Shown: positions 22,259-37,881 of the stretch, piece after piece
How positions within the stretch are numbered: the first letter of the stretch is position 1
Layout: every line of letters starts with the position of its first letter
Virus record (IMG/VR): IMGVR_UViG_3300023283_000076
Coordinates: 64,001-128,000 of that record
Length of the DNA: 64,000 bases
From: a virus
Lineage: Duplodnaviria > Caudoviricetes
Strand: one strand, 5' to 3'
Position numbers and translations under genes: made by a program
Notes under the pieces: model-generated
Seen by the model: only the letters and a program-made list of their open reading frames with translations
What the model was told of the DNA's origin: nothing
Database searches by the model: none

Positions 22259-22945
22259 GTGATACATATGGAAACACAAACAATAGAAGTACTTAAAAAT
22301 CATGGTCTTGAAATTAACGAAGAAGTTGATTCTGAAAATTTGGCATCTCAGCTAGGTGAAATGGATGTATGTGATCTGTGGCCTATTGTCGAAGACTTTA
22401 CTGGTGATGAAACTATCGGAATTGATGGAAACGAACAGATACAAGGGCTGACTCTTAGTTATGCTTTGGTTGATGCCTTTGAAAATAATCTTGATCATAT
22501 TGGACAGGCAGAAATCGACGGTGCTCTCAAAAAGGCAACTGAAACTGTTAATAAGATGACAGAAGAAGAAACTGTCACCGATGAGAGTGCTGAGAGTGCT
22601 ACGCCCAAGATTAATAAAAAAGATATCGTAAGTGGTCTTGTTCAAGAAAATCCTACTGCATTAGCTGATGAAATTGTCGCAATGGCTGTCGAAGCTGATT
22701 CTACCATCAATGAATCGACTGCTAAACAATATTATTATAATGTTCGAAAAGAGTTGAATATGGCACCTGTAGGGAAACGAGGCCGTAAACCATCCGACAC
22801 ACTTGATCGTATTAAGAGTATGCTAGAAGGAAACCTCGATACGCCCAAGGCAGAAATGGTTGAATCTATTGTAGATAAACTTGGTCTTACCGAGGGCACT
22901 GCAGCAACATATTACTCAAAAGTCAAGAAACAACTGAAATCGTAA
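22259..22945 (+). CDS. putative DNA-binding protein with duplicated helical domain; paralog of 34265..34999
   Basis: repeated ..TA..YY..V.K unit separated by GKRGRK; own promoter and terminator. Confidence 0.7.
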   Translation: MIHMETQTIEVLKNHGLEINEEVDSENLASQLGEMDVCDLWPIVEDFTGDETIGIDGNEQIQGLTLSYALVDAFENNLDHIGQAEIDGALKKATETVNKMTEEETVTDESAESATPKINKKDIVSGLVQENPTALADEIVAMAVEADSTINESTAKQYYYNVRKELNMAPVGKRGRKPSDTLDRIKSMLEGNLDTPKAEMVESIVDKLGLTEGTAATYYSKVKKQLKS

Positions 22946-23010
22946 ACAATTAACAAATAAAGGTGGGACCACGACAGTCCCACCTTTTAAATAATTAAAG
23001 GATATCATAT

Positions 23011-23208
23011 ATGAGAAAGAAGAATTTTCCAGAACGTAAGAAAGCTCGACGCCGTCAGGCTCTTGAACAAGTAAATGCACGTATTAAGCGTGGTGGTAAA
23101 GCTGCTAACTCTGATGAACGTGAAAGCAAGGGTATCACAGGAAATAAGGAAGCTCAACGTCTTGAACAGGCTAAGTATGAAAAAGCTCTACTAGAAAAAA
23201 GAGTTTGA
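23011..23208 (+). CDS. small basic protein
   Basis: AAGGA SD; K/R-rich. Confidence 0.65.
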   Translation: MRKKNFPERKKARRRQALEQVNARIKRGGKAANSDERESKGITGNKEAQRLEQAKYEKALLEKRV

Positions 23209-23393
23209 TGGAATCGTACTTAATAGAGTTGTGGAAGGAACTTGACCCATTGCGCAATATTTGGCTTTGGGTCGTTCTTGCTGGAATTCTTATATTTTTT
23301 TATTTGACGTTCAAGCTCTGGTTAGGTATAATTATCCTAATGGGAGCAATTACTGCTTATCGTAGATTTAACAAAAATCAACATAATCATTGA
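23205..23393 (+). CDS. small membrane protein
   Basis: hydrophobic core, overlap coupling. Confidence 0.55.
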   Translation: MMESYLIELWKELDPLRNIWLWVVLAGILIFFYLTFKLWLGIIILMGAITAYRRFNKNQHNH

Positions 23394-23435
23394 TCTCGAT
23401 GTGTCCAAGAACTTATGGCTTGACAGCGTAGCTTA

Positions 23436-23666
23436 ATGACATTAAACTGCTGGAACTCTTTTAAGGAATCTCTCATGAACGAAATGCGAAAGATTGAAGT
23501 GTCCAAGGGAAAATACATTCTTTACAATGGTACTTTTTTTGTCAAATCATGCGGCGAACATATTGTATGGACTTCTGCAAGACAGGATGCATATGTGTTC
23601 GATTCAAACATTCAAGTAGAAGATTGCCTTGAAAAAATAAATAAATTTCTTCGTAATAGTACTTGA
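23436..23666 (+). CDS. hypothetical protein
   Basis: co-oriented ORF; true start probably the internal Met. Confidence 0.5.
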   Translation: MTLNCWNSFKESLMNEMRKIEVSKGKYILYNGTFFVKSCGEHIVWTSARQDAYVFDSNIQVEDCLEKINKFLRNST

Positions 23667-24005
23667 CAGACATGAATTTTTCTGTATAATGGTTCACATG
23701 GTCATCGGGACCAGACATTAACATTAACCCTTCAATCAGGAGAATATAAAATGAGCAATCGTACTCGGGAATACACTCTAGAAGTCTATCGCAACAAGCG
23801 CTATCGTACCGTTCATGCTTCTCGCAAGATTTCACAATGTCTCAAGCGGGTGGAAAGCATGTATAATCGTTGCCGTATTCGCCTGAACGGGGAATCTGTA
23901 GTGCACCAGTTTGCTGCCCGTCAGTAATCCTCAACTCAAACGTGTGGGGAAGGAAATTCCTTCCTCATACTACCCAGTTTATAACATCTAATACGTGATA
24001 TATTA

Positions 24006-24197
24006 ATGTTTTCATTTCATAAAGGATCAAATTCCATGCAGACAAACTTTGATGTGTACCAAAATGGAAAACTAATTCACATTCTTCAATTTAACTATGA
24101 AGTAAGTCCACAAAAAATTCGTGAAGATATGCAAAATAGAGATGGATTTGAAGGTCCGCTTGTGATAGTTAAAAAACCTATGATTAAAACTAAATAA
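24006..24197 (+). CDS. hypothetical protein
   Basis: co-oriented ORF. Confidence 0.5.
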   Translation: MFSFHKGSNSMQTNFDVYQNGKLIHILQFNYEVSPQKIREDMQNRDGFEGPLVIVKKPMIKTK

Positions 24198-24221
24198 ATA
24201 AGTTATTTAAAAGGAAGACAA

Positions 24222-24782
24222 GTGAATAATATATTGAGAGATATAATATTAACCAGTATGTATATATTTTTATGTCTATGGATGTGTGTTCATGTATTCA
24301 TGGAAATTACCGGAAACTATTATTCTCGGGAAGTTCCTTTAGAAATTGAGCTTAACCCGGAATCACTTTATGATGGAGAACATATTGATATCGCATCCCC
24401 TGAAATTCTGTGCCTAGCTAAAAACATATACCATGAAGCTCGCGGTGAAGGAATTAAAGGAATGAGTGCAGTAGCTGCCGTAACATTGAATAGGGTAAAT
24501 TCATATTATTATCCTGATAATATATGTGATGTAGTATATCAACCATTTCAATTTTCATGGGTTTATGAAAACATGAAAATTGATTATACTAACCCCATTA
24601 ATTTAACATCGTGGGAAACTTCAAAAAAAGTAGCATTGATGATATTGAATAATGGAATCCCTTCTGATATGATAGATGTTTTACATTACCATGCTGACCA
24701 TATTAAACCTGATTGGTCTGATAGTAAAATTGAACATAAAAGAATAGCGAATCACATTTTCTATACGAATGCAGGAACTTAA
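24222..24782 (+). CDS. SleB/Hydrolase_2-family cell wall hydrolase with N-terminal TM
   Basis: CLAKNIYHEARGE, VTLNRV, ICDVVYQPFQFSW, YHAD..KPDW, NHIFY. Confidence 0.88.
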   Translation: MNNILRDIILTSMYIFLCLWMCVHVFMEITGNYYSREVPLEIELNPESLYDGEHIDIASPEILCLAKNIYHEARGEGIKGMSAVAAVTLNRVNSYYYPDNICDVVYQPFQFSWVYENMKIDYTNPINLTSWETSKKVALMILNNGIPSDMIDVLHYHADHIKPDWSDSKIEHKRIANHIFYTNAGT

Positions 24783-25193
24783 TTATGGTCGATCTCAACA
24801 CTAGAATAATTTTCTTTGATATAGATTAGGAGTATAATACATGTTAACTGAACATCAACGTAATATGATTAATGAGCTTCGTGATTGTGGATGTGCTGTT
24901 ACTGTCTTCCAACCAGAAGAGATGAAAGGTGTTGACCCTGAATTGATTGAAGAAGGGCTAATAGTTGAGGGTAACACTATTATTGAAAAGCTGTCTCAAG
25001 AATAATGGGTAACTTCTTGTCTAAAAAGGAAAAATGGACACTTGTAATTCTTTATGTGATAGTAATCATAGAATTTGCGGCTGTTATATATGCAGTTTTC
25101 AATCAATGAAGAGAAATTAATTGTAAATGGGGGTTGCAATATCTGAATTTTTCTGTATAATAGATTTCACATTCATTGATAGGAGAGTATTTG

Positions 25194-25700
25194 ATGCATA
25201 CCATTCGTGAAGCACGTTAAGAAGTTGAAAAGTGCCTTGAGCGTGCAAAGGAACTCTTTGGTTTTAACGCGGACATAGACATTTCTTTTGACAAGCGTGG
25301 TCGTATTGCTGGAACAGCACATAACTTGCCTAATGGATATGCCTTGAAATTCAATCATCAATTGCTCGAAAACGAACATTGGAGAGAATTGATTGATGAA
25401 ACGATTCCCCATGAGGTCGCACATATTGTCTGCTACTTTAATCCTACTCTTGGTAAGAATCATAACCAAGGCTGGCGTAGAGTATGCAGAATGTTGGGTG
25501 GTCGTGGTGATCGTACTCATAATATGCCGCTCAAACGTGCTAGGGTAACTCGCAAGGCAATCTATGATATCAATGGTAAGACTACCCATATCGGTCTTAC
25601 TGTACATCGTAGAATCCAACAGGGAAGGTCTTATACCATGCGTGGTGCTGGCAAGATTCACCCTACTCACTTCACTGGAGAGATTGTAGAAGTAAAATAA
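25194..25700 (+). pseudogene. sprT: SprT-family metalloprotease with in-frame TAA at 25218
   Basis: promoter and AGGAG leader, MHTIREAR*EVEKCLERAKELF...RIAGTA...ETIPHEVAHIV...HNQGWRRVC. Confidence 0.75.
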
Positions 25701-25968
25701 GACTTGACAAAACCCTCGATGGTTGATACTATTACAACCATCGAGGATGTTTTAAGAGTGACTTTAACACTGGCCTTACATTTTAAGACGCTGCCAGTCA
25801 CCCTTTCCTCAGGAATATTGGATGAGTTGATGAATGGTGCGGATTCAATAGCAATCCAATCTTGGAATCACGAGGATCATTCAGTAAGTTAGAGTCACTC
25901 TTAAAGCATTATAAGACTGTAATAAGCAGACTAATAAACTGGATTCAACATAGATACGGGACATAAAA

Positions 25969-26259
25969 ATGAGAACTCTAGAACAAATCGAACAAGAATA
26001 TCGGAGAGTTAGTGATATTCTTTCATGGGAAGCTGTTACGGAAGAAAGTTTGTTAGAACTTCCCTTCCCAGACGATGTAAACTTCGTGCAGTTTACAGGC
26101 CGTATGAATAACAGATTCGTGCGAGGTCGTCTTACTCGGGATCGTTCCGGTACTGTTAGTGTTAACATCGATCATACCATGTTGGCATGTAATTTACATG
26201 ATGCAATCAGAGCACTACACACCGAAGCAGGTGAAGTGTATTTGGCAAACAATTCTTGA
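25969..26259 (+). CDS. hypothetical protein
   Basis: co-oriented ORF. Confidence 0.6.
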   Translation: MRTLEQIEQEYRRVSDILSWEAVTEESLLELPFPDDVNFVQFTGRMNNRFVRGRLTRDRSGTVSVNIDHTMLACNLHDAIRALHTEAGEVYLANNS

Positions 26260-26282
26260 CAAATCTGGAATCTATTGTATAA

Positions 26283-26600
26283 TTGTTTCATCATTTAAAT
26301 AAAGGAACCATAATGTCAAAAGTATATCGATTCTATAGTGATCCCGGTCATGGATGGCTAGCAGTAAAAATTACTGATCTTGTGCGATTGGGCATTGTAG
26401 AAAAAATTACCAGTTTTTCATATATTCGTGGCAAGACTGCGTATCTTGAAGAGGATGCAGACTTATCCACCTTTGTTAAAGCATTAAAGGCCAATGGTGA
26501 AGAATTCTTAAATAAAGAGGGTTCATATAATGACTCTCGCAGTCATATTCGATCATATGATCAATATACACTACAAAAAGCATTGAATGCTATCAAATAA
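26283..26600 (+). CDS. conserved phage early protein
   Basis: FYSDPGHGWLAV...AYLEEDAD recurring phage pattern. Confidence 0.75.
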   Translation: MFHHLNKGTIMSKVYRFYSDPGHGWLAVKITDLVRLGIVEKITSFSYIRGKTAYLEEDADLSTFVKALKANGEEFLNKEGSYNDSRSHIRSYDQYTLQKALNAIK

Positions 26601-26794
26601 AGGAATCTCCAATGAATACACATGATAATAATCAAGCTATCTATGAAGAGCTTAAGAAACGATTTCCTGAACTCTGGACTGATGAACCTCTTCCCGGTGC
26701 AGATGCTGTAGATCGTCTAGTTTGGTGGAAAAAACAGCTTGACAACATTGACGAAGAATGATAATATACAATTAAATCAAACGTAAGGAAACCC

Positions 26795-27307
26795 ATGGAA
26801 GATTTTACTCGTATTGTCTGTCCCGGTGAAGCTTTTGTGAATGATACCATTTTTAAAAAGGTAATTTGCAGAATTTCATATGCTAATGGAAAATTGACGA
26901 TTACTGGTGTACATGGCCCGAAACGTAATGGCGATGCGTTTGGATCATGTGGTCAGATTAACCTTGAAAAACTCGATTTTGATTCATTCGAGGATGGATG
27001 GACGCAAGAGCGTCTTAACATGTTTATCAGTATTTGGAAAAGATTTCACCTGAATGATGTAAATGCTGGTTCACCTGCTCAACAGTTTTATTTGCAGAAT
27101 AATCCTATTGAGGGTGGCCAGTTGAACCATTACGAAAGGGCATGTGAAGCATTGGAGTTAGCAAGGTTGAACCCTGACCCTTATTATATTCATAATGGTA
27201 AGCCTTACTTATATGGCTCTGCATGGATTTCAATGGATGTACCTGAATGGGCATTGAAATGGCTCCACGATCTCCCGGAGACTAACAGAAATTACGCTTG
27301 GGTTTAA
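26795..27307 (+). CDS. conserved phage early protein
   Basis: GSCGQ...HLNDVNAG...YLYGSAW pattern. Confidence 0.75.
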   Translation: MEDFTRIVCPGEAFVNDTIFKKVICRISYANGKLTITGVHGPKRNGDAFGSCGQINLEKLDFDSFEDGWTQERLNMFISIWKRFHLNDVNAGSPAQQFYLQNNPIEGGQLNHYERACEALELARLNPDPYYIHNGKPYLYGSAWISMDVPEWALKWLHDLPETNRNYAWV

Positions 27308-27528
27308 GATTCCCTGTCAGTGAATGGTCAGTGGAATGTAAGGGCACAAAACATCGTGCCCCTTTTTTAATCGTATTCTAGGGCCTTTACTCCATCATAA
27401 TCCATTTGTCAAAAACTTTCGACGGAACTACATCACATAAAAAATTTACAATTATTTTCGGAAATCGGTTGACAGATTAATCATGATGCTGTATAATTGT
27501 ACTCACACTCACTGATAGAAAAAACAAC

Positions 27529-28029
27529 ATGCGAACAGTAAATCTTACATGTACACAATACTTCAATAATGCCGGTCAACTGTTCCTTACGGAATACAGG
27601 CTGAATGATCAACTTCATCGAGAAGATGGTCCGGCATATCAAGAATGGAATTATGCCGGTCAACTGATCCGTAAGGAATATTGGCTGAATGATCAACTTC
27701 ATCGAGAAGATGGTCCAGCAATCCAAAACTGGAATGATGCTGGTCAACTGATCCGTAAGGAATATTGGCTGAATGATCAACTTCATCGAGAAGATGGTCC
27801 AGCATATCAACAATGGAACGATGATGGTCAACTGTTCTTTGAAGCATACTGGTTGAATGATCAACTTCATCGAAAAGAGGGTCCAGCAATCAAAGGATGG
27901 AATGATGCTGATCAACTGATCCGTGAGGAATACTGGCTGAATGGAAAAATTGTTGACTCTTTGCCGGATTCATACGATAATAAAATCGTAGAGATTGATG
28001 GCAAGAAGTTTCGGCTTCAAAAGATTTAA
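27529..28029 (+). CDS. LHREDGPA (MORN-variant-like) repeat protein
   Basis: about 4.5 tandem 28-aa (84-bp) units. Confidence 0.85.
   Translation: MRTVNLTCTQYFNNAGQLFLTEYRLNDQLHREDGPAYQEWNYAGQLIRKEYWLNDQLHREDGPAIQNWNDAGQLIRKEYWLNDQLHREDGPAYQQWNDDGQLFFEAYWLNDQLHRKEGPAIKGWNDADQLIREEYWLNGKIVDSLPDSYDNKIVEIDGKKFRLQKI
27560..27945 (+). repeat. 84-bp coding tandem repeat
   Basis: TGAATGATCAACTTCATCGA recurs every 84 bp (about 27601, 27685, 27769, 27853). Confidence 0.9.
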
Positions 28030-28229
28030 TCCTAGTCAGTGAATGGTCAGTGGAATGTAAGGGCACAGAGCATCGTGCCCTTTTTTATTTTCTATTCTAC
28101 AACCTTTACCATATTATTCCCATACTGTCAAGTAAAAAATTAAAAAATAATTTCAAAAAACTATTGCATTTCTTAAATTGTTTAGTATAATTTCACTGCA
28201 CTTTCCAAAAACAGTTAAGGATATTCATA

Positions 28230-28760
28230 ATGGAACTGCTAGAATATTTTAAGGATTGCATGTCTGAGATTCACGAGAGAGTATCTAAGAGTATTGAACT
28301 AATTAACCATGGTGGTTGTGCTATCTTTGCTGTTGAACTTGTTAAGAGAATGCACAAATTGGGAATGAATCCAAGTATCAGAGTTTATGGAGAAGAAGAG
28401 GTAGACGTATCTTTAGCAGAACAGCACATTCTGGAATATGAAGAACCCATGGATGTTGAATCATGGAATGATAATGGTGTTGAATTTGTTCATATTGTGG
28501 TAGAATGGGCTGGATATCTATGGGACGCTGAGACTATAGAATCGATAGAAGATGCTTATGAATATGGTTGGCATGATTATCCTCTGCTCGCCGGTGAGAT
28601 ATCTTTTAATTCATTAAAAGAGATTGCATTGCAAAGAGACGGTTGGAATAGTACCTATAACAGATCACAAAACCCCATTCTGTATAACATTCTTGATGAT
28701 GTATTTGAACGTCTCGAAAATAATTTGGGGCAGGAACGGCAGGAACTGATTGCTGCTTGA
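28230..28760 (+). CDS. hypothetical early protein
   Basis: own promoter, AAGGA SD; GGCAIFA and HIVVEW motifs. Confidence 0.7.
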   Translation: MELLEYFKDCMSEIHERVSKSIELINHGGCAIFAVELVKRMHKLGMNPSIRVYGEEEVDVSLAEQHILEYEEPMDVESWNDNGVEFVHIVVEWAGYLWDAETIESIEDAYEYGWHDYPLLAGEISFNSLKEIALQRDGWNSTYNRSQNPILYNILDDVFERLENNLGQERQELIAA

Positions 28761-28815
28761 CAAACATGAAAATATCTGTATAATAGTTCATATTGTTGAC
28801 AGTTAAGGAATATCA

Positions 28816-29082
28816 ATGAACACTCGTGAACTTATGGTTAATCTCGAACTCATTCATAACCTTCTTATAGAAGGTAACCATAAAGAAGCAGAGCACAAGC
28901 TTCGCAATCTTCGTGCTCAGTTCGCGGAAACTGAAACTGTGTTGAATGGTCATGATTGTCGGGACATTATTACAAAATACGATGCTGGTAAAATTTCATT
29001 TGTATGTTTTGTTCGTGCTGTCCGAAACCGTACTGACGTGAGTATTGCTGAACTCAAACAATTTTGTGAAAAGTTTCGTTAA
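28816..29082 (+). CDS. hypothetical protein
   Basis: own promoter, AAGGA SD. Confidence 0.65.
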   Translation: MNTRELMVNLELIHNLLIEGNHKEAEHKLRNLRAQFAETETVLNGHDCRDIITKYDAGKISFVCFVRAVRNRTDVSIAELKQFCEKFR

Positions 29083-29146
29083 ACAGCCGTTGAAGCCTTG
29101 ACAAGCATGAAAACATCTGTGTAATAGGTTACAAGATTTAAGGTTT

Positions 29147-29230
29147 CAACAAGGTTTGTAGTCGAAGCCCTTAGAGCCGTGAAACCGGAGCTAGATTGAA
29201 AACTGGTCAAAACAAACCTTGTTGCTTTTT
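29147..29230 (+). ncRNA. candidate small RNA with 13-bp closing stem and U-tract
   Basis: CAACAAGGTTTGT/ACAAACCTTGTTG perfect stem, TTGACA upstream at 29099. Confidence 0.5.
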
Positions 29231-29704
29231 TATTTAATTAAAAGGATATTAGTCATGAACACAGTGTACCTGCTTGAAAGGGATATTCCCTATGAAGGAA
29301 ACACTATTAAATCTGTCCATAGCACTCTTTCAAAGGCTGTAGAAGCTCTTGCAGATATTGCAATGAGTGAAGGGCCAATGGGTTTTGCTTACACTGTGAA
29401 TTACCATATTTATTCTATGGAAACTGATGGTGAAGAAGAGAGCCATAATCATTTTTTTAGTGTTGGTGATAGTAACTTTTTTGTTCGAGGAGCAGATTCT
29501 GATGTAAAAAACTTCACCAATCTTACTCATAATGATATTGTCCATGCTATCAATACCAACATGGAACACCGTAAAGAATATCCACATACTACATTGAGCC
29601 TCTGCAACATTCTGTATTACATGGAGCAGTTCAATATAGATTATGATACTGCCTATCGGTGGTACGCTCAAGCTGATGAAAAATGGTGGAAAGAAAATTA
29701 TTAA
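29219..29704 (+). CDS. hypothetical protein (likely start at MNTVYLL)
   Basis: AAGGA before internal Met. Confidence 0.65.
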   Translation: MLLFYLIKRILVMNTVYLLERDIPYEGNTIKSVHSTLSKAVEALADIAMSEGPMGFAYTVNYHIYSMETDGEEESHNHFFSVGDSNFFVRGADSDVKNFTNLTHNDIVHAINTNMEHRKEYPHTTLSLCNILYYMEQFNIDYDTAYRWYAQADEKWWKENY

Positions 29705-29729
29705 ATCTGCTTGACAAACATGAAAACAT

Positions 29730-30092
29730 TTGTATAATGGATTTCAATGTCCCCCAAACAGGAACAAAAACATGAAAGCATTTTTGATTGATCCCCGAAA
29801 TGAAACCGTTACCGAAACAACGTATAACGGTAACATCGAAGATATCTACAATCAAATTGATGTACGAAATTTTGAAGTTGCAACAATCAACGATGAAGGG
29901 GATGGTGTATATGTCGATGGTGAGGGACTATTCTCAGATGAGCGTTTTGTGTTCACTGTAAGAGGGTATTCGGGACCACTTGTGAACCCGGCAATGGTTA
30001 TCGGTTGCAATCCTGAAACGGGTGAAAATCGTGAAGCGTCAGTGACACTAGAATGGCTTGAACGCAATGTAAATTTTATGGGCCGAGTGTAA
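29730..30092 (+). CDS. DUF3846-like phage protein (likely start MKAFLIDP)
   Basis: YVDGEGL motif. Confidence 0.65.
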   Translation: MYNGFQCPPNRNKNMKAFLIDPRNETVTETTYNGNIEDIYNQIDVRNFEVATINDEGDGVYVDGEGLFSDERFVFTVRGYSGPLVNPAMVIGCNPETGENREASVTLEWLERNVNFMGRV

Positions 30093-30368
30093 TAACTTAC
30101 TCGGATATTCTAAAGGAGACCTTAAAAATGCTTAGACGAAATAAAGATCCGCCCGCGAGGGTATAATTAGATGATTATTTTAAGATAATAAGAAAGATGA
30201 AAGAACCCGGTTCGTAGATGGCCGGGTTCTTTCTTTTTTATCCTATTCTAAAACCTTTATCATATGTTCAACATTATGTCAAGATATTTCTTGTTTAATT
30301 TTCCATTGCATTTTCTTTGGTTTTCAGGTAGACTATAATTATTAAATTACATGTTAGGAGTCTAAAAA

Positions 30369-30701
30369 ATGTCTGAGAAACCTCGTCATACATGCATGAA
30401 GAGAATTCATGTTCGTCAGGCTATCGAAGAAACAATCATGGAATCCGATTTCCATACTCATGTTGTACTGACAACATCGTGGACTTGGACTGAAGTAATC
30501 GATGGTGTCGTCAAATATTTCAGAGAACGTCCTAGTATGCAAGAAGAATATTTTTATGACGTGATCGAAATTGCTACTGAAATTGTAGGTGAAGATAGAT
30601 TAACAGAACGTGCTGCGCCCTATGGTGACGCTGATACAGGTCAGGCCATTAGCTTTCCTGCTTTCATCGAAACTATTGCGGGAGATGTGTTTGACATTTG
30701 A
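30369..30701 (+). CDS. hypothetical protein
   Basis: own promoter, AGGAG SD. Confidence 0.7.
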   Translation: MSEKPRHTCMKRIHVRQAIEETIMESDFHTHVVLTTSWTWTEVIDGVVKYFRERPSMQEEYFYDVIEIATEIVGEDRLTERAAPYGDADTGQAISFPAFIETIAGDVFDI

Positions 30702-30734
30702 GATATAGTATACTATTGTTTTACACTTAACAGG

Positions 30735-31046
30735 ATGATTATTATGGCTTCTGCAATTCATTTCCATGGCACCGATTTTTTTCTTGATCCGTCAGAACTG
30801 GATGGTAACATTCTGCAAGATTTGAAGGATTGTGGCGGTCAAGGTGACGCTTCCAGTGCAGTTGACTATGTAATGGACAATTATCAAATTACTGGAAATG
30901 AGCAGGATTGTCAAAACTATCTCAAGGGATATGGTGCATGGGAAGATCATGAACTTCAAGATCATCATGAAAATCTGCGTCGTCTTGTATGGCTTGCAGG
31001 ATGCGACTTAGATGAACAAAACGAAATATATTTTTCAACCTATTAA
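30735..31046 (+). CDS. conserved phage hypothetical protein
   Basis: YGAWEDHEL...RLVWLA pattern. Confidence 0.7.
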   Translation: MIIMASAIHFHGTDFFLDPSELDGNILQDLKDCGGQGDASSAVDYVMDNYQITGNEQDCQNYLKGYGAWEDHELQDHHENLRRLVWLAGCDLDEQNEIYFSTY

Positions 31047-31065
31047 AATTCAATGGAGATATTAG

Positions 31066-31485
31066 ATGTTTACACTTCAAGATTGCTTCAATGCTGCATG
31101 GCACCATTTTATCGAAAATCAAAATCCTCCATCCGTAGTATCAAGGACATGGGATGATAATAGCTATATGCCAGCATACAATAATGGCACAAATAAATGT
31201 GCAATTGGTCTATTGACTGATGATCTTAAAGATTGGGATGGTAGCATTGAAGAATTATTTACTCCGGGTCCTGAAAACGAAAAATTTAAAAGTCTTGTAG
31301 AACAATTTGATGTTGATCTTTCATCCGAAGAGAGTATTGAATCATGGCAAGAAGCGCAAAATAAACTCCATGATTTTCATATTGACTTCGAGTCTGGAGA
31401 ATGGGTTTGTTCATTTGAAGAGCTTAAAGATAACTATATTCGATTTGCTCATGAACATGCTTTGGATATCCCAAATGAACATTAA
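31066..31485 (+). CDS. hypothetical protein
   Basis: GGAG SD; KCAIGLL...QNKLHD. Confidence 0.7.
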   Translation: MFTLQDCFNAAWHHFIENQNPPSVVSRTWDDNSYMPAYNNGTNKCAIGLLTDDLKDWDGSIEELFTPGPENEKFKSLVEQFDVDLSSEESIESWQEAQNKLHDFHIDFESGEWVCSFEELKDNYIRFAHEHALDIPNEH

Positions 31486-31962
31486 TAAGATTTATGAAAA
31501 TCTGTGCATTCGTGATTCCAGAAATCCGATGTATGATGAATTGAAGGATTCTTATGAACCATATGATATCATGCCTGAACCTAGAGCCGATTGTGCTTGT
31601 GACAATTGTTTCTATGGTAGAGACAGATTAGCACTTGAAATTATTCGACTGCGTATTAAATTGGGGTTGTATCATTAGATTATTTTTTGTAGAATATACG
31701 TATGTCATTGTGGGCGAACGAACACGGATGGATCAACCCGATTAACCATGTTTTAGTATTTACAAAAACAGAACGGGATACGTTGAATCTACCCATGGGT
31801 GAACACTGGCACCGTATTGTTGGTTAAGTGTCCATATACCCTCTATATACCCCCTAATATATAACGCATGCGTTAGTAGTTAATGTATCATATTCTTTAC
31901 ACTATCTTACTTAATGTATAAAATGAGATACATTACCATCTAAAATCATTTTTAAATTTCTC

Positions 31963-32301
31963 TTGCATTGTTTGATTGATCATGCTATTATATATCCACG
32001 TTCACTAATCGGAGAAACTTACATGTCTGTCGAAATTGTTAACGAACGTTTCATGGTTTGTGTTGATTGCGCTATGTTTATTGCCAACGATGATCTTAGT
32101 GGGCTCGATTACCATTTTCTCTCCGATGAATCTGAACAGCGTGAAATCGCTATCCGCAACGGTGTTCAATATCAAAACGATCAAGATAATCATATTGTTA
32201 TGGGAAACTCTGATGATGATATTGAATTTTCCAAAAGCCCTTGCAATTGTTGTGGCGATCATTTACATGGATATCGTTATCATGCAGTTTTACTTAAATA
32301 A
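31963..32301 (+). CDS. Cys-rich hypothetical protein (likely start MSVEIV near 32023)
   Basis: CVDC and CNCCG motifs; GGAG before internal Met. Confidence 0.65.
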   Translation: MHCLIDHAIIYPRSLIGETYMSVEIVNERFMVCVDCAMFIANDDLSGLDYHFLSDESEQREIAIRNGVQYQNDQDNHIVMGNSDDDIEFSKSPCNCCGDHLHGYRYHAVLLK

Positions 32302-32318
32302 GAAACATTCCTACATAT

Positions 32319-32459
32319 AAATGAAAATCATTTTCATTTGGCAATGAGAATCATTTTCAATATCAAAAATGATAGCCATTCTCATTTGACAATAAAAACC
32401 ATTCTCATTTGACAATAAAAACCATTCTCATTTGACAATAAAAACCATTCTCATTTGAC
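32319..32459. promoter_or_regulatory. array of six Fur-box-like sites, last four as 23-bp tandem repeat
   Basis: AAATGAAAAT-C-ATTTTCATTT palindrome, TGAGAAT-C-ATTTTCA, then CCATTCTCATTTGACAATAAAAA repeats. Confidence 0.7.
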
Positions 32460-32558
32460 CTTATCTCGATTCAACCCTAGATGGTATCATATAACACCTG
32501 TAAATACAAAGATTTTTTTTTATCCTATTTTGGTACCTTTATCATATGCTGATACCTT

Positions 32559-32701
32559 TGTCAATACCCTAAAGAAAATATAATCAAAATCTATCAATCC
32601 ATCAGAGTTCATGCACAAATCGGATTTACAATTATTTTCAAAAATCGGTTGACGGATTGAGCATGTTGCTGTATGATCGGACTCACATTCACTGATAAAG
32701 G
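32559..32701. repeat. repeated intergenic promoter module (copies near 35095-35237 and 35603-35744, partial near 27444-27520)
   Basis: TGTCAATACCCTAA...AAATCGGATTTACAATTATTTTCA.A.ATC.GTTGAC...ACATTCACTGATA. Confidence 0.85.
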
Positions 32702-32710
32702 TAAATTGTT

Positions 32711-33019
32711 ATGCTAAAGATTGAACAGGAAATGATTAACGCCATTCAAAACAAGCGCAATTGGAGGTTCGGTAATACTTCGGTCGAATACTTGCCCGAG
32801 ATTGTTACACCTATGCGGGCACGTATTGAAATGGCAAAAGTTTATCTTTACAGTAACTGTATTGCCACTTATTCTTATCATGATAATACAGCTACTATCG
32901 TTCCCAGCACGCTTGTAGAATGGCCTACTGTTACAACCTTTTCTCGCCTTCGTGCTCTTGGACTTGATCCTAAATCGGAACTTAAGAGAATTGCAAATAA
33001 CATACAAGATGCAGCATGA
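32711..33019 (+). CDS. conserved phage early protein
   Basis: MLKIEQEM...GNT.V...TTFSRLRAL; own promoter. Confidence 0.7.
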   Translation: MLKIEQEMINAIQNKRNWRFGNTSVEYLPEIVTPMRARIEMAKVYLYSNCIATYSYHDNTATIVPSTLVEWPTVTTFSRLRALGLDPKSELKRIANNIQDAA

Positions 33020-33333
33020 AAAACAATTACCGCAAGTTAACCAAGAAACAATGGTATGACCTTGGCGGCTTCGCCAATCCATCATTGTTTCGTCGTGACC
33101 GTAGCAGGGGCTGGCAATACTATCAAGATATGGACCACCCTGCAAGTAATCATAACTATAGTGAATAAAGAATCGGGGCTTCGGCCCCCTTTCTTTTATC
33201 CTATTCTAGAACCTTTACCATACAATCAAAACAGTGTCAACCGATAAACGAAATAATTTATTTTTAAATAAGTATTGACTCCTCCAAAAATACCAGTATA
33301 ATTGTTTACATCATTTCAACAAGGGAAATAGCT

Positions 33334-33636
33334 ATGGAAAATGTAAAGTTTGCTGGCTTTGATTGTACCGTTGAATTTGCCACGTACTCGAATGGACGTA
33401 CCGCTATTCAGCTTCGTGATGCAAACGATGGCCAGCCAATTGCCACCGCAACAGTCAACCTTCCCGATGAACCGATGGCTGAGGATGAGGTTGCTATCAA
33501 GAACTATAGCGAAAACTCTGGCATGTTAGATATTTTAATAGACACTGGAGTGATTGCCAGCCCGCATCGTGAAATCCCTAGCGGCTTCGTCACCATACCA
33601 GTCTGCGCCCTTCTGGTCAATCCAAATCAATCCTAG
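33334..33636 (+). CDS. conserved phage early protein
   Basis: YSNGRTAIQL...ATVNLP...IKNYSEN pattern; own promoter. Confidence 0.75.
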   Translation: MENVKFAGFDCTVEFATYSNGRTAIQLRDANDGQPIATATVNLPDEPMAEDEVAIKNYSENSGMLDILIDTGVIASPHREIPSGFVTIPVCALLVNPNQS

Positions 33637-33723
33637 TCAGTGAATGGTCTAGGTGGGCACGGGAAACCGTGCCCTTTTTTATCCTATTCTAAAACCTTTA
33701 TCATATCTTCATTCTAATGTCAA
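33631..33723. repeat. about 93-bp trailer/terminator module, near-identical copy at 34066-34158
   Basis: TCCTAGTCA.T.AATGGTCTAGGT-GGGCACGG-GAAA-CCGTGCCC-TTTTTTATCCTATTCTAAAACCTTTATCATATCTTCATTCTAATGTCAA. Confidence 0.9.
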
Positions 33724-33806
33724 GAAAAATAATTTAAAATTTATTCTTGACACTCTCAAAAATATCTGTATAATAGAATGTACATTCACTGATAGGAATA
33801 ACATAC

Positions 33807-34043
33807 ATGAACACTCTCAAGAACATTTCATTAGATCGAGATACTATTTTAATGGAACACGGATATGATCCGAATGATCCTACCTTGCAGGTGCATGTTA
33901 GTGTATCTGAAATTGAACCTAACCCTGATGGCAATGAAGATTATCTCATCGATGGTTCTAGTGTCACTACATCATCAGAACTTATCGACGGCCGTCAAAA
34001 TGATGTTGATCTGAATATCGAAATTTTCCGAGAACCGCATTAA
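33807..34043 (+). CDS. small acidic hypothetical protein
   Basis: own promoter with shared leader. Confidence 0.65.
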   Translation: MNTLKNISLDRDTILMEHGYDPNDPTLQVHVSVSEIEPNPDGNEDYLIDGSSVTTSSELIDGRQNDVDLNIEIFREPH

Positions 34044-34264
34044 GTATCGGCTCCAATCAGTTTAATCCTAGTCAATAAATGGTCTAGGTGGGCACGGGAA
34101 ACCGTGCCCTTTTTTATCCTATTCTAAAACCTTTATCATATCTTCATTCTAATGTCAACCCTTCAACCCAAAAAATTTCTTACAAATAATTATTAAAAAC
34201 CCTTGCACTTTCCCGAAAAATCTTTATAATAGATTCTAACATCAACTGAAAAAGGATAGTAGGT

Positions 34265-34999
34265 ATGCCAAGTCAAGAAATCGTCGAAATTTTCCGCAAT
34301 CATGGCGTGAACATCACCGCTGATGATTCCAGTATGAAACTGGTCAAAGCGTTGAAAGAAGAAAATCCCGCAACACTATGGCCCATGCTTGAAGAGTTTA
34401 CTAACAACAAGCCTATCGGCCTCGATGGCTGTAACGAAACAATGCATCACTATACATTGCAATATGCCCTCGTAAGAGCATTTGAACAAAATCGTGATAG
34501 CATCACTCAAGACGATTTAGATGCTGCTCGTGAAGATGCTGCCAAATTAGCAGAATCCCTTTCTCATGGTTCGTCTACTCGTGATGATGAAATCGTTCAA
34601 AATGATTCCGAAAATGAAGATAATCAGAGTAACGTTGCTAAGCCTAAGAAAACCAGAAAACGAAATCGTAATCTGTATCCCATGATCCTTTCGTTAGTCG
34701 AAGATAATATGAAAGCAACGCCTAACGAAATTCTCGAAATGGTCAAAGAACGTGATCCCGCTGCAAACGATTCAACCGTCAAGGTATACTACAGCAAGGC
34801 ACGTAATGAACTCAACTTGCCGAAAATCGGAAAACGTGGCCGCAAGGGTTCAGGTATCTATGATAAGATCAAAGCATTGATTGAAGCTAACCCGAACGTT
34901 GAACGTGCTGAAATGATCGAACGCATCGTTAACGAACTTGGAGCCAAAGTCGGTACCGCTCAAGCCTACTACAGCAAGGCAATGAAAGAATTGAGCTAA
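34265..34999 (+). CDS. putative DNA-binding protein; paralog of 22259..22945
   Basis: KVYYSKAR...GKRGRK...AQAYYSKAMK duplicated unit. Confidence 0.75.
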   Translation: MPSQEIVEIFRNHGVNITADDSSMKLVKALKEENPATLWPMLEEFTNNKPIGLDGCNETMHHYTLQYALVRAFEQNRDSITQDDLDAAREDAAKLAESLSHGSSTRDDEIVQNDSENEDNQSNVAKPKKTRKRNRNLYPMILSLVEDNMKATPNEILEMVKERDPAANDSTVKVYYSKARNELNLPKIGKRGRKGSGIYDKIKALIEANPNVERAEMIERIVNELGAKVGTAQAYYSKAMKELS

Positions 35000-35245
35000 C
35001 CCCTAGCTTAACATCAAAAACTATTCAGGGACCATAGAACGGTCCCTGAATATTATCCTATCCTAATGCCTTTAACTCATCATCATCATCCATTTGTCAA
35101 TACCCTAAGCAAAATATAATCAAAACATATCAATCTATCCAAATCTATAGACAAATCGGATTTACAATTATTTTCAGAAATCGGTTGACGAATTGACCAT
35201 GTTGCTGTATGATCGTACTTACATTCACTGATAGGAGAAACACAA

Positions 35246-35515
35246 ATGGAAGATATTCTCAGGGAAGAGCGATTCAACAAAATTATGGAAGCAGGAAACA
35301 ATGGCCATTTCTTTTCTGTTCGCTTCATCAAGCGGTCTAACGGTGCCGAACGCTTCATGACCTGTCGCCTCGGAGTTACAAAACATCTCAAGGGTGGTAA
35401 CAAAGCATACGACGACAAAGTTCACAAACTTGTCACCGTCTACGATGTTCAAGCCAAAGGATACCGTTGCATTCCACTGGAAAGCATCTTTGAACTCAAC
35501 GGCGAACCTATCTGA
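35246..35515 (+). CDS. SH3/WYL-like beta-barrel phage protein
   Basis: FFSVRFIKRSNG.ER.M.CRLGV.KHLKGG...VYDVQAKGYR. Confidence 0.65.
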   Translation: MEDILREERFNKIMEAGNNGHFFSVRFIKRSNGAERFMTCRLGVTKHLKGGNKAYDDKVHKLVTVYDVQAKGYRCIPLESIFELNGEPI

Positions 35516-35752
35516 TAGGTTCAATCGTATCATCAAGAGGATGCGACTTGTTCGCATCCTTTTTTATCCTATCCTAATGCCTTTAACTCATCATCATTTA
35601 TTTGTCAATACCCTAAAGAAAATATAATCAAAACCTATCAATCAATAAGAATCTATAGACAAATCGGATTTACAATTATTTTCAGATATCAGTTGACAAT
35701 CCTGAAAATATCTGTATAATCCTTAATTACATTCACTGATAAGGGTAACACG

Positions 35753-36640
35753 ATGAACGGAAATCAAAAGATTCACAAGATTGTAGCGCAAGCTTTCATC
35801 GACCAGATCGAAGCAGGTATGGCGGATGGTAAATGGACCGCTCCATGGGCGAAGCTTGCCACAGACTTTCCGACCAATGCCGTGACAAAGAAGGCATACC
35901 GTGGTATCAATATCTTTTCATTGTGGGGCGCTGGATTCTCATCCCCGTACTGGGCTACCTTTAAGCAATGGAAGTCAGTCGATGCCACGATCAAGAAAGG
36001 ATCAAAAGGATCATTGATCGTTTTCTGGAAAATTATCGATTCCAAGAATCAATTCGATAGTGACGGCAAGCCAAAAAAGTTTCCCTTCCTACAGAAATCG
36101 AAAGTTTTCAATGCCGATCAAGTTGATGGCTGGACCGCTCCAACACTGGAAGATCGTCCTAAGCTTTCGACAAATGAAATCCATGCCGAATGCGATGCAA
36201 TGATCGCAGCGACGGGTGCTGAAATCCAGCATGGCGGAAATATGGCCTGTTATGTTCCAAGTCATGACCGTATACTTCTTCCTGAATTCAACGCCTTTCG
36301 GGATGCCGATTCATACTATCAGACCGCATTCCATGAACTGGCACATTGGACAGGTCATGCTTCACGACTGGACCGCAACCTTTCCACCCGCTTCGGAAGC
36401 AATGCATATGCATTGGAAGAACTGTTAGCAGAACTTACAGCAGCCATTGTGGGCGTCCGTATGGGCATCGATGCTACTACCCGCATGGACCATGCAAAGT
36501 ATGTAAAGAGTTGGCTTACGGCGCTTCGTGAACAGCCAGAGTGCCTCATGCATATCGCCAGCAAGGCGAGCAAGGTAGCGGATTACCTGATCGAGGGCGA
36601 AGCAGGTGAAACCAAACAAGATCAAGCGGAAGCCGCTTGA
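35753..36640 (+). CDS. ardC: ArdC-like antirestriction protein (ssDNA-binding plus zincin domain)
   Basis: W.APW, YRGIN, YWATFKQW, VFNADQV, FHELAHWTGH.SRL.R, YALEEL.AEL. Confidence 0.9.
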   Translation: MNGNQKIHKIVAQAFIDQIEAGMADGKWTAPWAKLATDFPTNAVTKKAYRGINIFSLWGAGFSSPYWATFKQWKSVDATIKKGSKGSLIVFWKIIDSKNQFDSDGKPKKFPFLQKSKVFNADQVDGWTAPTLEDRPKLSTNEIHAECDAMIAATGAEIQHGGNMACYVPSHDRILLPEFNAFRDADSYYQTAFHELAHWTGHASRLDRNLSTRFGSNAYALEELLAELTAAIVGVRMGIDATTRMDHAKYVKSWLTALREQPECLMHIASKASKVADYLIEGEAGETKQDQAEAA

Positions 36641-36739
36641 TCTATCATTGATAGACTAGACGAGGATGCGAATCATTCGCATCCTCTTTTTTATCCTACT
36701 CTAGAGCCTTTACCATATAACATATCGCTTGTCAATACC

Positions 36740-37350
36740 CTAATCCAAAAAACTGAAAACAAGTTTGGGAAATTTTGATTACCATATTTTTGAGATCTTG
36801 TCAAGGGGGTACGGGCTGTGCTAAGCAATTGAACAAAAATTAACCACTTTTTTATATAGAAAGTTTTTGAGAATTTTTGATTAGTTCTACAGGGGAATAT
36901 TAGACCCTTTTTTATTTTTTGCTATCATTTTTTATCATTTGCTATTATTTTTCACGATTTATAATAATTTGTGATTGTTTTTCATAAGTTGTGACTGTTT
37001 TTCATGAATATTGATAAACACAATTTGATTGTATAAACACAATACAATACTTTGGCATTGATTCTGCTAAACAGAATACAAGTTTCGGTTTTGTATATAT
37101 GGAAGAGGGGGGTCTTTTATATAAGGGTTTATATTATTGAAAAAATTTTCTCAGAATTTTTTTTATTACTCAGAGATTTTATATTCTGTTAGAGTTTATA
37201 AACTTTAATAAAATATTGTTTTTTAAAAAAGTATGATTTAAAACATCCGATGAATTGAAAGTTAAGTGAAATCTATGATAATGACCACAAGAATCAAGAA
37301 CTGATTCAAATGAACTAAATATTTGAAAGATCATTTCAATAGTCGTTGGA
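36740..37350. other. AT-rich non-coding boundary with short direct repeats
   Basis: TTGTGA(T/C)TGTTTTTCAT twice (36969, 36989), ATAAACACAAT twice (37014, 37033); no ORF in track. Confidence 0.55.
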
Positions 37351-37358
37351 ATTAACAT

Positions 37359-37727
37359 TTATTTTTTCCAGACACATTTTTCGTTATACCACTTTGCTAC
37401 TACGGTAGTTACTATAATTTTTGAATTATTTTTTACTTTACAGATAAAGAAACATGGTCCATTATTCACTACAACGAATTTACCGTAGCGTGTAAAGTTT
37501 CTATTCAGCCAGAACGGTGATTGTTCCCATTTGTCACAAATTCTTCCTTCTTTAACTTTTTCTGCAATGATTGAATTCCACATATATTTGGAAGATACTT
37601 TACTACTGTAGAAATATAATCTAAAGCGTTCCAAGAATCTATTATGTGCGTGATGTGTAACACGAATATCTTTTATATTAGCGTTTCGCACACAGTTTTT
37701 AAGAGAGGTGGTGTTTATATGTGTCAT
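37359..37727 (-). CDS. hypothetical protein, possible RelE-like fold
   Basis: VTHHAHNRFLERF ... IIVTTV pattern. Confidence 0.55.
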   Translation of the reverse strand: MTHINTTSLKNCVRNANIKDIRVTHHAHNRFLERFRLYFYSSKVSSKYMWNSIIAEKVKEGRICDKWEQSPFWLNRNFTRYGKFVVVNNGPCFFICKVKNNSKIIVTTVVAKWYNEKCVWKK

Positions 37728-37881
37728 TGTTATTTTTCGTTATTTTAAAAATTATTAGTTATATAATTTACGATTGGTATTATACCAATTGTTGAAGGGA
37801 TTGTCAAGCTTAAATGTTATTGATTGTAATTTGGTACTTATTGTGATATACTTATTTTAGAAATTTGTTAGGAAAAGATTA

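What the first reader, a model, noticed from the sequence alone, without database searches (positions are those of the whole stretch)
25169..35744. Shared early-gene leader and complementary 3' trailers: a possible phage-wide antisense switch
Seen: the leader ACATTCACTGATAGGA, which includes the SD, precedes early genes at 25169 (one C-to-T change that keeps a G:U pair), 27505, 32685, 33782, 35221 and 35729, with a weaker copy near 31997. The trailer TCCTAGTCAGTGAATG follows stop codons just before terminators at 28030 and 33631, with variants at 27311 and 34066. It pairs with the leader over 15 bp with one bulged G. The 27.3 and 28.0 kb trailers add a second anti-leader, TCAGTGGAATGT. Some trailers sit on genes lacking the leader, which favours action in trans. 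Inference: 3'-UTR-derived sRNAs shut off translation of the early regulon, or 5'-3' pairing closes mRNAs; alternatively these are inverted repeats used in cassette movement.
Basis: partly seen in the sequence, partly recalled or inferred. Interest (0 to 1): 0.8.

Follow-up and report, generated by a model that had tools for sequence, protein, structure and literature searches.

The report
Anti-leader elements in phage early cassettes
In an uncultured giant phage, many early genes share the same first 16-17 mRNA bases, including the ribosome-binding site, and several gene ends carry the mirror-image sequence just before the terminator; related phages with a different leader carry a matching different mirror, so it is probably an untested RNA brake on early translation built into mobile promoter-terminator cassettes.

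Summary
The leader ACATTCACTGATAGGA starts 6-8 nt after the -10 box of sigma70-type promoters. It occurs at 8 sites in the window and 8 more in a diverged inverted copy of this region elsewhere in the 270-kb genome. Its reverse complement, with one extra G, lies between stop codon and intrinsic terminator at 4 window sites and 1 in the other arm.

Leader, promoter, terminator and trailer are parts of repeated regulatory cassettes like the PeSLs of T4-type phages. Two gene cassettes are bracketed by direct repeats of the trailer-terminator module and are missing from relatives.

The new part is the anti-leader:
- It pairs with the consensus leader at -20 to -26 kcal/mol.
- More distant relatives have a different leader (…TCAACGGAGG). 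Their pre-terminator elements carry CCTCCG(TTGAA), which matches their own leader and not this phage's.
- General 5'-3' mRNA closure is not supported.
- Small-scale variation is not compensatory, and the trailer also forms its own hairpin.
- No expression data exist.

Most likely it is an RNA element that hides the Shine-Dalgarno sequence of early mRNAs, acting in trans or on read-through transcripts. A recombination by-product remains a serious rival.

The scan noted a similar anti-RBS tract before a terminator in a T1-like coliphage (e1-1908429).

The parts
25134..25185 (+). Promoter (TTGCAA-16-TATAAT) plus leader ACATTCATTGATAGGAG (25169-25185) before an SprT-like gene
27311..27368 (+). Trailer family A (TCCCTGTCAGTGAATG plus second copy GTCAGTGGAATGT, 27311-27341), then an intrinsic terminator at 27342-27361 and a T run. 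It follows the 170-aa gene 26795-27307
27469..27520 (+). Promoter (12/12 consensus) plus leader variant ACACTCACTGATAGAA (27505-27520) before the repeat-protein gene 27529-28029
28030..28086 (+). Trailer family A copy (TCCTAGTCAGTGAATG plus GTCAGTGGAATGT, 28030-28060), then a terminator at 28061-28080. With 27311-27390 it forms the 80-nt direct repeat that brackets the inserted 719-bp cassette
   Evidence: (D12); the cassette is absent in L048 and L050
31963..32013 (+). Promoter plus weak leader copy ACGTTCACTAATCGGAG (31997-32013)
32649..32700 (+). Promoter plus leader ACATTCACTGATAAAG (32685-32700) before genes 32711-33019 and 33016-33168
33631..33680 (+). Trailer family B (TCCTAGTCAGTGAATGGTCTAGGT, 33631-33654; its TCC TAG is the last codon and stop of gene 33334-33636), then a terminator at 33655-33674. 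The trailer folds into its own 8-bp hairpin with loop GUGAA
33747..33797 (+). Promoter (12/12) plus perfect leader (33782-33797) before the 78-aa gene 33807-34043
34066..34115 (+). Trailer family B variant (TCCTAGTCAATAAATGGTCTAGGT), then a terminator at 34090-34109. With 33612-33723 it forms the 112-nt direct repeat bracketing the inserted 435-bp cassette, which is absent from the other genome arm
   Evidence: (D9)
34205..34256 (+). Promoter plus degenerate leader ACATCAACTGAAAAAGGA (34239-34256) before the 244-aa gene 34265-34999
35185..35236 (+). Promoter plus perfect leader (35221-35236) before the 89-aa WYL_2/Sm-like gene 35246-35515
35693..35744 (+). Promoter (12/12) plus leader ACATTCACTGATAAGG (35729-35744) before the ArdC-like gene 35753-36640
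33674..33731 (+). One of 9 copies of the post-terminator box (TTTTATCCTATTCTA…CCTTTATCATAT…TGTCAA) that joins terminator and promoter in the cassettes. The other copies start at 27363, 30233, 32515, 33191, 34109, 35048, 35559 and 36686
   Evidence: D2, D4

Best explanation
The leader and trailer are the two outer ends of PeSL-like mobile regulatory cassettes, ordered anti-leader, terminator, spacer box, sigma70-type early promoter, leader with SD. The host is a jumbo phage with a T4 gp23-type capsid protein.

Shown:
- The leader is the first 16-17 nt predicted for the transcript and contains the SD.
- The trailer lies directly 5' of an intrinsic terminator.
- The modules are repeated and bracket gene cassettes that are present or absent among relatives.

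Inferred:
- The trailer is an RNA anti-leader. It is carried in the terminator-protected 3' end of early transcripts, partly displayed in a hairpin loop.
- It base-pairs with the shared leader/SD of the roughly 16 leader-bearing early mRNAs and blocks ribosome binding, possibly also creating an RNase III substrate.
- I favour action in trans, or generically on any leader-bearing RNA, because the trailers match the consensus leader better than the leader of their own or their neighbouring gene.
- The same pairing would also silence the downstream gene on terminator read-through transcripts.
For: - Position: all leader copies start 6-8 nt after -10 boxes of several different promoter subtypes.
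- Pairing strength: -20 to -26 kcal/mol for 6 of 7 trailer variants. At most 1% of random 26-nt windows reach this.
- Lineage matching: relatives L042 and L045 have the leader …(A/T)TCAACGGAGG. After the ortholog of gene 26795-27307, L045 has CCCTCCGTTGAAATT directly before the terminator. All 5 sense-strand CCTCCG in L042 and L045 lie within 15 nt 5' of terminator hairpins.
- Own-versus-cross matrix: this phage's trailers give a mean of -21 to -23 on its own leaders and -7 to -13 on theirs. Their trailers give -12 to -18 on their leader type and -7 to -10 on ours.
- The conserved part in L042 is the anti-SD only. That is an RNA-level feature, not a DNA one.
- Trailers fit the consensus leader better than their own gene's leader.
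- Read-through RNAs fold with a trailer-to-downstream-leader helix in 4 of 5 cases.
- Architecture is sRNA-like: a seed in a loop or single strand, then a terminator with a U tail.
- Negative controls behave: XacN1 and RB49 cassettes show no such enrichment.
- PeSL-like nature; definition taken from PMC2839356 and PMC4122927.
Against: - No expression, 3'-end or processing data exist.
- Small-scale variation is not compensatory. One change is G:U-compatible against about seven that break pairing.
- The 34066 variant keeps its local hairpin but loses leader pairing (-10.5).
- The L035 change T to C strengthens the local hairpin and weakens leader pairing.
- Families A and B differ by two compensatory pairs in that hairpin's lower stem. 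The hairpin may therefore be what selection keeps.
- Only 5 trailers serve 16 leaders, and both are made from early promoters, so a temporal switch is not evident.
- In L042 the match is only 7 nt and is not energetically exceptional.
- The closest cultured relative by capsid protein, XacN1, has similar leaders but no anti-leader.
- Trailers A and B share one origin, so the independent events are few.
Confidence: 0.38

Rival explanations
1. Recombination by-product. The anti-leader is an accidental inverted copy of the leader that became part of the terminator module. It spread because that module is the homology block used in cassette exchange, and its RNA complementarity has no regulatory role.
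For: Trailers lie inside 80-112-nt repeated modules that bracket two cassette insertions. Families A and B share one origin (TCAGTGAATGGTC). A recombination breakpoint lies inside the trailer in L048 (TTTTCAG|TCAGTGAATGG). Small-scale variation is not compensatory. XacN1 and RB49 do well without it.
Against: It does not explain why distant relatives with another leader carry their own matching anti-SD or anti-leader before terminators, in several different terminator modules. It also does not explain why L042 keeps only the anti-SD part.
Confidence: 0.24
2. Read-through insulation only, as for T4 genes e, soc, 49 and I-TevI. On transcripts that pass the terminator, the trailer pairs with the next cassette's leader and hides its SD. 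The gene is then translated only from its own promoter, whose transcript starts exactly at the leader and lacks the anti-leader.
For: Every trailer is followed 150-195 nt later by a promoter and a leader-like sequence. The MFE of read-through RNAs contains the long-range helix in 4 of 5 cases, with 11-23 expected long-range pairs. The 244-aa gene is preceded by an anti-SD trailer in four lineages, whatever gene lies upstream. The TSS coincides with the first leader base. The T4 precedent is described in PMC3014915.
Against: Trailers fit the consensus leader better than the ancestral neighbouring leader. In L045 the values are -18.9 against -10.9, and for arm L -15.7 against -23. The terminators are strong, so read-through may be rare. 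Upstream and downstream promoters are both early, so the benefit is unclear.
Confidence: 0.2
3. The selected feature is the trailer's own hairpin (8 bp, loop GUGAA) stacked on the terminator. It would act as a 3'-end stabiliser or a protein-binding site, and the resemblance to the leader would be a relic of its origin.
For: All three family B variants keep or improve the hairpin. The lower stems of A and B differ by two double, pair-preserving changes.
Against: The hairpin is weak (-6 to -10 kcal/mol, z about -1.5 to -2.7). It is lost in two of seven variants that keep leader pairing. It does not explain the L045 and L042 elements.
Confidence: 0.08
4. 5'-3' closure of the same mRNA (icaR- or hok-like). 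Each mRNA's leader pairs with its own trailer.
For: Transcript 27505-28086 is predicted to close, with about 10 expected pairs. The precedent is icaR (PMC3868564).
Against: Resident trailers sit on genes with a non-matching leader (-5.7 to -8.6 kcal/mol). No closure is predicted for 33782-34115 or for the 33334-33636 transcript. Most leader-bearing genes have no trailer.
Confidence: 0.05
5. A DNA site. This would be either an operator at +1 to +16 for a phage or host repressor, with extra sites at gene ends, or inverted repeats of an invertible promoter segment.
For: The position at +1 to +16 is typical of operators. The core TCAnTGA is palindromic, and family A has two copies 11 bp apart. The arms flank a promoter-bearing segment.
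Against: The complementarity includes the SD in every lineage, and in L042 only the SD. The extra G changes the half-site spacing. No strand-switching joints appear in the contigs of two metagenomes, though that is weak evidence. No recombinase gene is adjacent.
Confidence: 0.05

Closest known systems
PeSL (promoter-early stem-loop) mobile regulatory cassettes of T4-type phages (Arbiol et al. 2010, PMC2839356; Comeau et al. 2014, PMC4122927)
   Same: Repeated composite elements made of a terminator stem-loop, an AT-rich spacer, a near-consensus sigma70 promoter, the SD and the start codon. They sit between small orphan genes in a plastic early region and lie at the borders of insertions and deletions between close relatives. 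The phage has a gp23-type capsid gene.
   Different: The PeSL papers describe no sequence complementary to the leader, and the word 'complementar' does not occur in PMC2839356. RB49 PeSLs that I inspected have a shared leader but no anti-leader. Here the cassette begins with an anti-leader/anti-SD 5' of the stem-loop. Mini-circles could not be tested. The phage is only distantly T4-like; the nearest capsid match is XacN1 at 66%.
icaR mRNA 3'-UTR anti-SD (UCCCCUG) pairing with its own SD in Staphylococcus aureus (PMC3868564)
   Same: A 3'-UTR motif complementary to the SD region. The proposed outcome is blocked initiation and a double-stranded RNase III substrate.
   Different: icaR is one gene acting on itself. 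Here a few trailers face about 16 mRNAs with a shared leader, mostly on other transcripts. Self-pairing is predicted for only one cassette.
Translational silencing of read-through transcripts of T4 genes e, soc, 49 and I-TevI (reviewed in PMC3014915)
   Same: An upstream sequence sequesters the SD on long transcripts. The gene's own promoter starts downstream of the inhibitory arm, so its transcripts are translatable.
   Different: In T4 the two arms are close together and the promoter is late. Here the loop is 135-180 nt and holds a terminator plus an early promoter. The same arm sequence is reused at several cassettes.
3'-UTR-derived and terminator-sharing sRNAs of enterobacteria (CpxQ, DapZ, SroC; from my knowledge) and the c4 antisense RNA of P1/P7 (Rfam RF01695)
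   Same: A seed directly 5' of the mRNA's own intrinsic terminator, or displayed in a loop. The target is a ribosome-binding region.
   Different: No evidence that a fragment is released. No Rfam family matched. No Hfq or ProQ gene was found above threshold. The target is a private leader shared by phage early genes.

Membership tests
PeSL cassettes of T4-type phages | Stem-loop acting as a terminator next to a strong sigma70-like early promoter | tested here: met
   Consensus promoters (up to 12/12) lie 60-130 nt after G+C hairpins with T runs. Function in vivo was not tested.
PeSL cassettes of T4-type phages | The element extends to a conserved SD and the start codon of the downstream gene | tested here: met
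   A shared 16-17-nt leader with SD lies 5-9 nt before ATG at 8 window sites and 8 in the other arm.
PeSL cassettes of T4-type phages | Many copies between small orphan genes in a plastic region, at borders of insertions and deletions between close relatives | tested here: met
   There are 9 box copies. Cassettes 27391-28109 and 33724-34158 are bracketed by module repeats and are absent in L048, L050 or the other arm.
PeSL cassettes of T4-type phages | Formation of mini-circles by recombination between neighbouring elements | not testable with these tools
   This needs inverse PCR on infected cells. Contigs show only 'goes back' joints at repeats.
PeSL cassettes of T4-type phages | Host genome is a T4-type myovirus | tested here: inconclusive
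   The Gp23 family matches at E=7e-97, but the nearest cultured capsids are XacN1-like jumbo phages at 64-66%.
icaR-type 5'-3' UTR pairing within one mRNA | The 3'-UTR motif pairs with the SD of the same transcript | tested here: not met
   Pairing with the own leader is -5.7 to -8.6 kcal/mol for resident trailers. Closure is predicted in 1 of 3 transcripts.
T4 gene e-type read-through silencing | An upstream arm sequesters the SD on long transcripts, and the gene's own promoter starts inside or after the arm | tested here: inconclusive
   The predicted helix appears in 4 of 5 read-through RNAs, and the TSS falls at the first leader base. There are no transcript data, and the fit to the neighbouring leader is weaker than to the consensus.
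c4 antisense RNA (Rfam RF01695) and other curated RNA families | Match to the covariance model at the gathering score | tested here: not met
   An Rfam scan of the whole window returned only tRNAs.
3'-UTR-derived sRNA | A stable 3' fragment with the seed 5' of the terminator, released or separately transcribed | not testable with these tools
   The architecture fits. No RNA run holds this phage.
Invertible promoter segment (inverton) | Both orientations present in a population, with a recombinase | tested here: inconclusive
   No strand-changing joints appear in the contigs of two runs, but contigs drop rare variants. No recombinase gene is next to the region.

The most novel reading that the evidence does not exclude
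The cassettes carry a self-contained, co-evolving leader/anti-leader pair. Any gene captured by a cassette would then be wired automatically into a regulon-wide antisense circuit: stable 3' ends of a few early mRNAs titrate the shared 5' leader of all early mRNAs and so set the timing of early-gene shut-off. Related phages would run orthogonal versions with their own leader/anti-leader code.
Probability: 0.25. Interest if true: 0.8.

Novelty: new variant of a known kind. Interest (0 to 1): 0.55.

Why it matters
PeSL-type cassettes are known as drivers of gene shuffling in large virulent phages, and they have been treated as promoter-terminator units only. If the anti-leader is functional, the cassette also carries a post-transcriptional control that moves with it. 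That would give a simple RNA-only route to coordinate or silence a whole set of unrelated early genes. It would also add a phage example of 3'-UTR-to-SD regulation at regulon scale.

The lineage-specific leader/anti-leader pairs (ACATTCACTGATAGGA with its trailer, against TTCAACGGAGG with CCTCCGTTGAA) provide ready-made orthogonal pairs for a clean reporter test in E. coli, without needing the uncultured phage. If it is only a recombination scar, it still marks the exact homology blocks used in cassette exchange.

Tried and rejected
- Expression: no RNA holder is listed for this stretch, so transcript ends and levels are unknown.
- Contigs of two DNA runs: they break at the repeats and mostly reflect the paralogous arm. 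No strand-changing joints were listed, so inversion has no support, but contigs cannot exclude it.
- Close relatives: none in the phage collection or IMG/VR, and one useless hit in JGI metagenomes. Relatives came only from protein look-ups.
- L052, L053, L115 and L116 are unrelated phage types.
- Rfam returned only tRNAs.
- RegB, RegA and ProQ families were not found, and Hfq gave only a sub-threshold 15.9-bit hit. The record is about 79% complete.
- Control 16-mer from a relative's leader: 45 chance hits in IMG/VR, none in a promoter context.
- Leader 17-mer in prokaryote genomes: 13 hits, mostly chance.
- No paper holds the leader sequence.
- The MAFFT alignment of trailers did not align the 3' arms. 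Hairpins were compared by folding instead.
- XacN1 and RB49 show no anti-leader.
- A minus-strand promoter reading into the trailer was considered and rejected, because the only -10 candidate is TAAAGG.
- A transposon with terminal inverted repeats was considered and rejected. There is no target duplication, and the bracketing repeats are direct.

Full report
**Context.** The window is bases 64001-128000 of a single 270,653-bp virus record with 34.5% G+C. CheckV rates it 79% complete. It carries a T4 gp23-type major capsid gene (E=7e-97). By that protein its nearest cultured relatives are XacN1-like jumbo phages at 64-66% identity. The window holds 18 tRNA genes. Window 20001-38686 has a diverged copy (78-92% identity) in inverted orientation at genome 15027-1, with cassette-sized gaps. 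This serves as an internal comparator.

**Observation.**
- The leader gives 5 matches against 0.03 expected, and the trailer 4 against 0.04.
- The exact core CATTCACTGA occurs 13 times in the genome, only in the two arms.
- In the orientation of the local genes there are 16 leader copies, 8 in the window. Each starts 6-8 nt after a -10 hexamer and ends 5-9 nt before ATG.
- These copies sit behind at least four promoter subtypes that differ in -35 box and spacer. The independent promoter and terminator scan agrees.
- So the leader is the predicted 5' end of the mRNA, through the SD.
- Five trailers (27311, 28030, 33631, 34066, and genome 5844-5861 in the other arm) lie between a stop codon and a G+C hairpin with a T run.
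- At 33631 the first six bases are the last codon and the stop of gene 33334-33636.

**What the repeats are.** Leader and trailer are not isolated motifs. They are the ends of longer repeated units:
- trailer plus terminator plus a 58-nt box (9 copies);
- promoter plus leader (83-146-nt families).

This matches the published definition of PeSLs: stem-loop terminator, AT-rich stretch, sigma70 promoter, SD and start codon, in the plastic regions of T4-type phages, at the borders of insertions and deletions (PMC2839356 and PMC4122927).

Two insertions show it directly:
- The 719-bp unit with the repeat-protein gene 27529-28029 is bracketed by 80-nt trailer-terminator repeats. It is missing in relatives L048 and L050, where the 170-aa gene is followed at once by the 176-aa gene.
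- The 435-bp unit with the 78-aa gene is bracketed by 112-nt repeats that are 91% identical over 112 nt (D9) and 98% over their 95-nt core. It is missing from the other arm.

These are direct repeats, as expected from the mini-circle integration model, not inverted ones. A shared leader is therefore ordinary for such cassettes. RB49 PeSLs also share a leader.

**What is not ordinary.** The element 5' of the terminator is the reverse complement of the leader.
- Duplex energies with the consensus leader are -20 to -26 kcal/mol for 6 of 7 trailer variants.
- Among random 26-nt windows of the same strand, at most 1% reach these values. Other terminators of the region do not.
- RB49 and XacN1 show nothing comparable, so the test does not produce hits by itself.

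**Relatives.**
- Closer relatives (75-82% protein identity: L035, L048, L050) keep the same trailers with a few substitutions.
- More distant ones (L042 and L045; 63-68% on the 89-aa protein, 46% on the 170-aa protein) have cassettes of the same build but another shared leader, …CATCAACGGAGG or …ATTCAACGGAGG.
- In L045, after the ortholog of gene 26795-27307, the 3' UTR has CCCTCCGTTGAAATT directly before the terminator. This is an 11-nt complement of that phage's own leader, with CCUCC in a small loop.
- Across L042 and L045, all five CCTCCG hexamers on the sense strand lie within 15 nt 5' of terminator hairpins.
- A cross-matrix shows lineage matching:

| Trailers | Mean kcal/mol on own leader type | Mean kcal/mol on the other lineage's leaders |
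|---|---|---|
| This phage | -21 to -23 | -7 to -13 |
| L042 and L045 | -12 to -18 | -7 to -10 |

- Because the part kept in L042 is just the anti-SD, the constraint looks RNA-level rather than DNA-level.

**Which partner?**
- Pairing of each trailer with the leader of its own gene is poor for the resident trailers (-5.7 to -8.6). Whole-transcript folding predicts 5'-3' closure only for 27505-28086. General mRNA closure is therefore not supported.
- On read-through RNAs the trailer pairs with the next leader in 4 of 5 cases. The 244-aa gene is preceded by an anti-SD trailer in four lineages, whatever gene lies upstream. This recalls T4 genes e, soc, 49 and I-TevI (PMC3014915).
- Yet the trailers fit the consensus leader better than the ancestral neighbour's leader. 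In L045 the values are -18.9 against -10.9. This points to a generic, possibly trans, action.
- I therefore commit to an RNA anti-leader that hides the SD. Trans action is somewhat more likely than read-through silencing, and the two are not exclusive.

**Evidence that tempers this.**
- Small-scale variation gives no compensatory support. One leader change keeps a G:U pair, whereas about seven changes in leaders or trailers break pairs.
- Family B trailers fold into their own hairpin, CCUAGUCA-GUGAA-UGGuCUAGG.
- The three B variants keep or strengthen this hairpin while weakening leader pairing.
- Families A and B differ by two pair-preserving double changes in its lower stem.
- Conversely, two variants lose the hairpin and keep leader pairing.
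- Trailers A and B share one origin, so independent events are few.
- There are no RNA data.
- A by-product of cassette recombination therefore remains a serious rival.

**Comparison with the known.** The cassettes meet the sequence-level criteria of PeSLs. The anti-leader is not part of that description. Functionally the nearest precedents are:
- the icaR 3'-UTR anti-SD (PMC3868564), though here it is mostly not on the same mRNA;
- the T4 read-through hairpins;
- terminator-sharing 3'-UTR sRNAs and c4 RNA, for which there was no Rfam match.

Earlier notes of this scan describe a similar anti-RBS tract before a terminator in a T1-like coliphage (e1-1908429), and anti-SD RNAs in other phages. 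I treat these as leads, not as support.

**Verdict.** The leader is an ordinary cassette feature. The anti-leader is a new variant of known 3'-UTR/SD antisense themes, supported by lineage-level matching but untested. The finding is of moderate interest and is directly testable with reporters.

Noticed in passing
L002:2503-2518 (-), L009:1623-1638 (-), L107:4221-4237 (+): The exact 16-17-nt leader also sits 6-8 nt after consensus sigma70 promoters and 5-8 nt before ATG in two unrelated IMG/VR contigs and one Anaerolineaceae MAG contig. The flanks show no similarity. A control 16-mer gave 45 hits, none in a promoter context. It could be convergence, cassette spread or chance; this is unexplained.
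   Followed up: partly
window 20001-38686 versus genome 15027-1: A large diverged inverted duplication (78-92% identity) of the early region, with cassette-sized insertions and deletions. Together with another note (e1-5367676), it suggests that about 100 kb of the record is one imperfect palindrome.
   Followed up: partly
window 25195-25700: The SprT-like gene behind the 25169 leader has a TAA at codon 9 (25219-25221), where the paralog in the other arm has CAA. The window copy may be N-terminally truncated or dead.
   Followed up: no
window 25704-25910: A TTGACA-17-TACTAT promoter is embedded in a strong hairpin (25710-25745), followed by about 160 nt without an ORF and with 22-nt inverted arms (25747-25768 / 25888-25909). 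It is conserved in the other arm, in L048 and in L050, and is a candidate small RNA.
   Followed up: no
window 35246-35515 (paralogs at genome 4172 and 4713, minus strand): An 89-aa protein behind a perfect leader has three paralogs and matches WYL_2 (Sm-like SH3 barrel) at E=1.6e-4, below the cut-off. It could be an RNA-binding helper of the proposed pairing.
   Followed up: no
window 36641-36655: A perfect palindrome TCTATCATTGATAGA, identical to the core of the tetO1 operator as I recall it, lies between the ArdC-like gene and its terminator. It is absent from the paralogous arm.
   Followed up: no
window 27556-27975: Four to five tandem 84-nt repeats encode a 28-residue repeat (…YWLNDQLHREDGPA…) in the 166-aa protein of the inserted cassette. 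No Pfam or PHROG family matches.
   Followed up: no
XacN1 AP018399.1 1-66 kb (L119-L122): About ten copies of a promoter (TTGACA…TAAAAT) followed by GGATGGCAGGCCGGG… are scattered on both strands of the terminal repeat. This may be a family of small RNAs.
   Followed up: no
window 33674-33690 and 8 other box copies: The box just after the terminator T run contains TCCTAT, the exact complement of the leader's ATAGGA, in 7 of 10 copies. This is a second short anti-SD that would be present only on read-through RNA.
   Followed up: no
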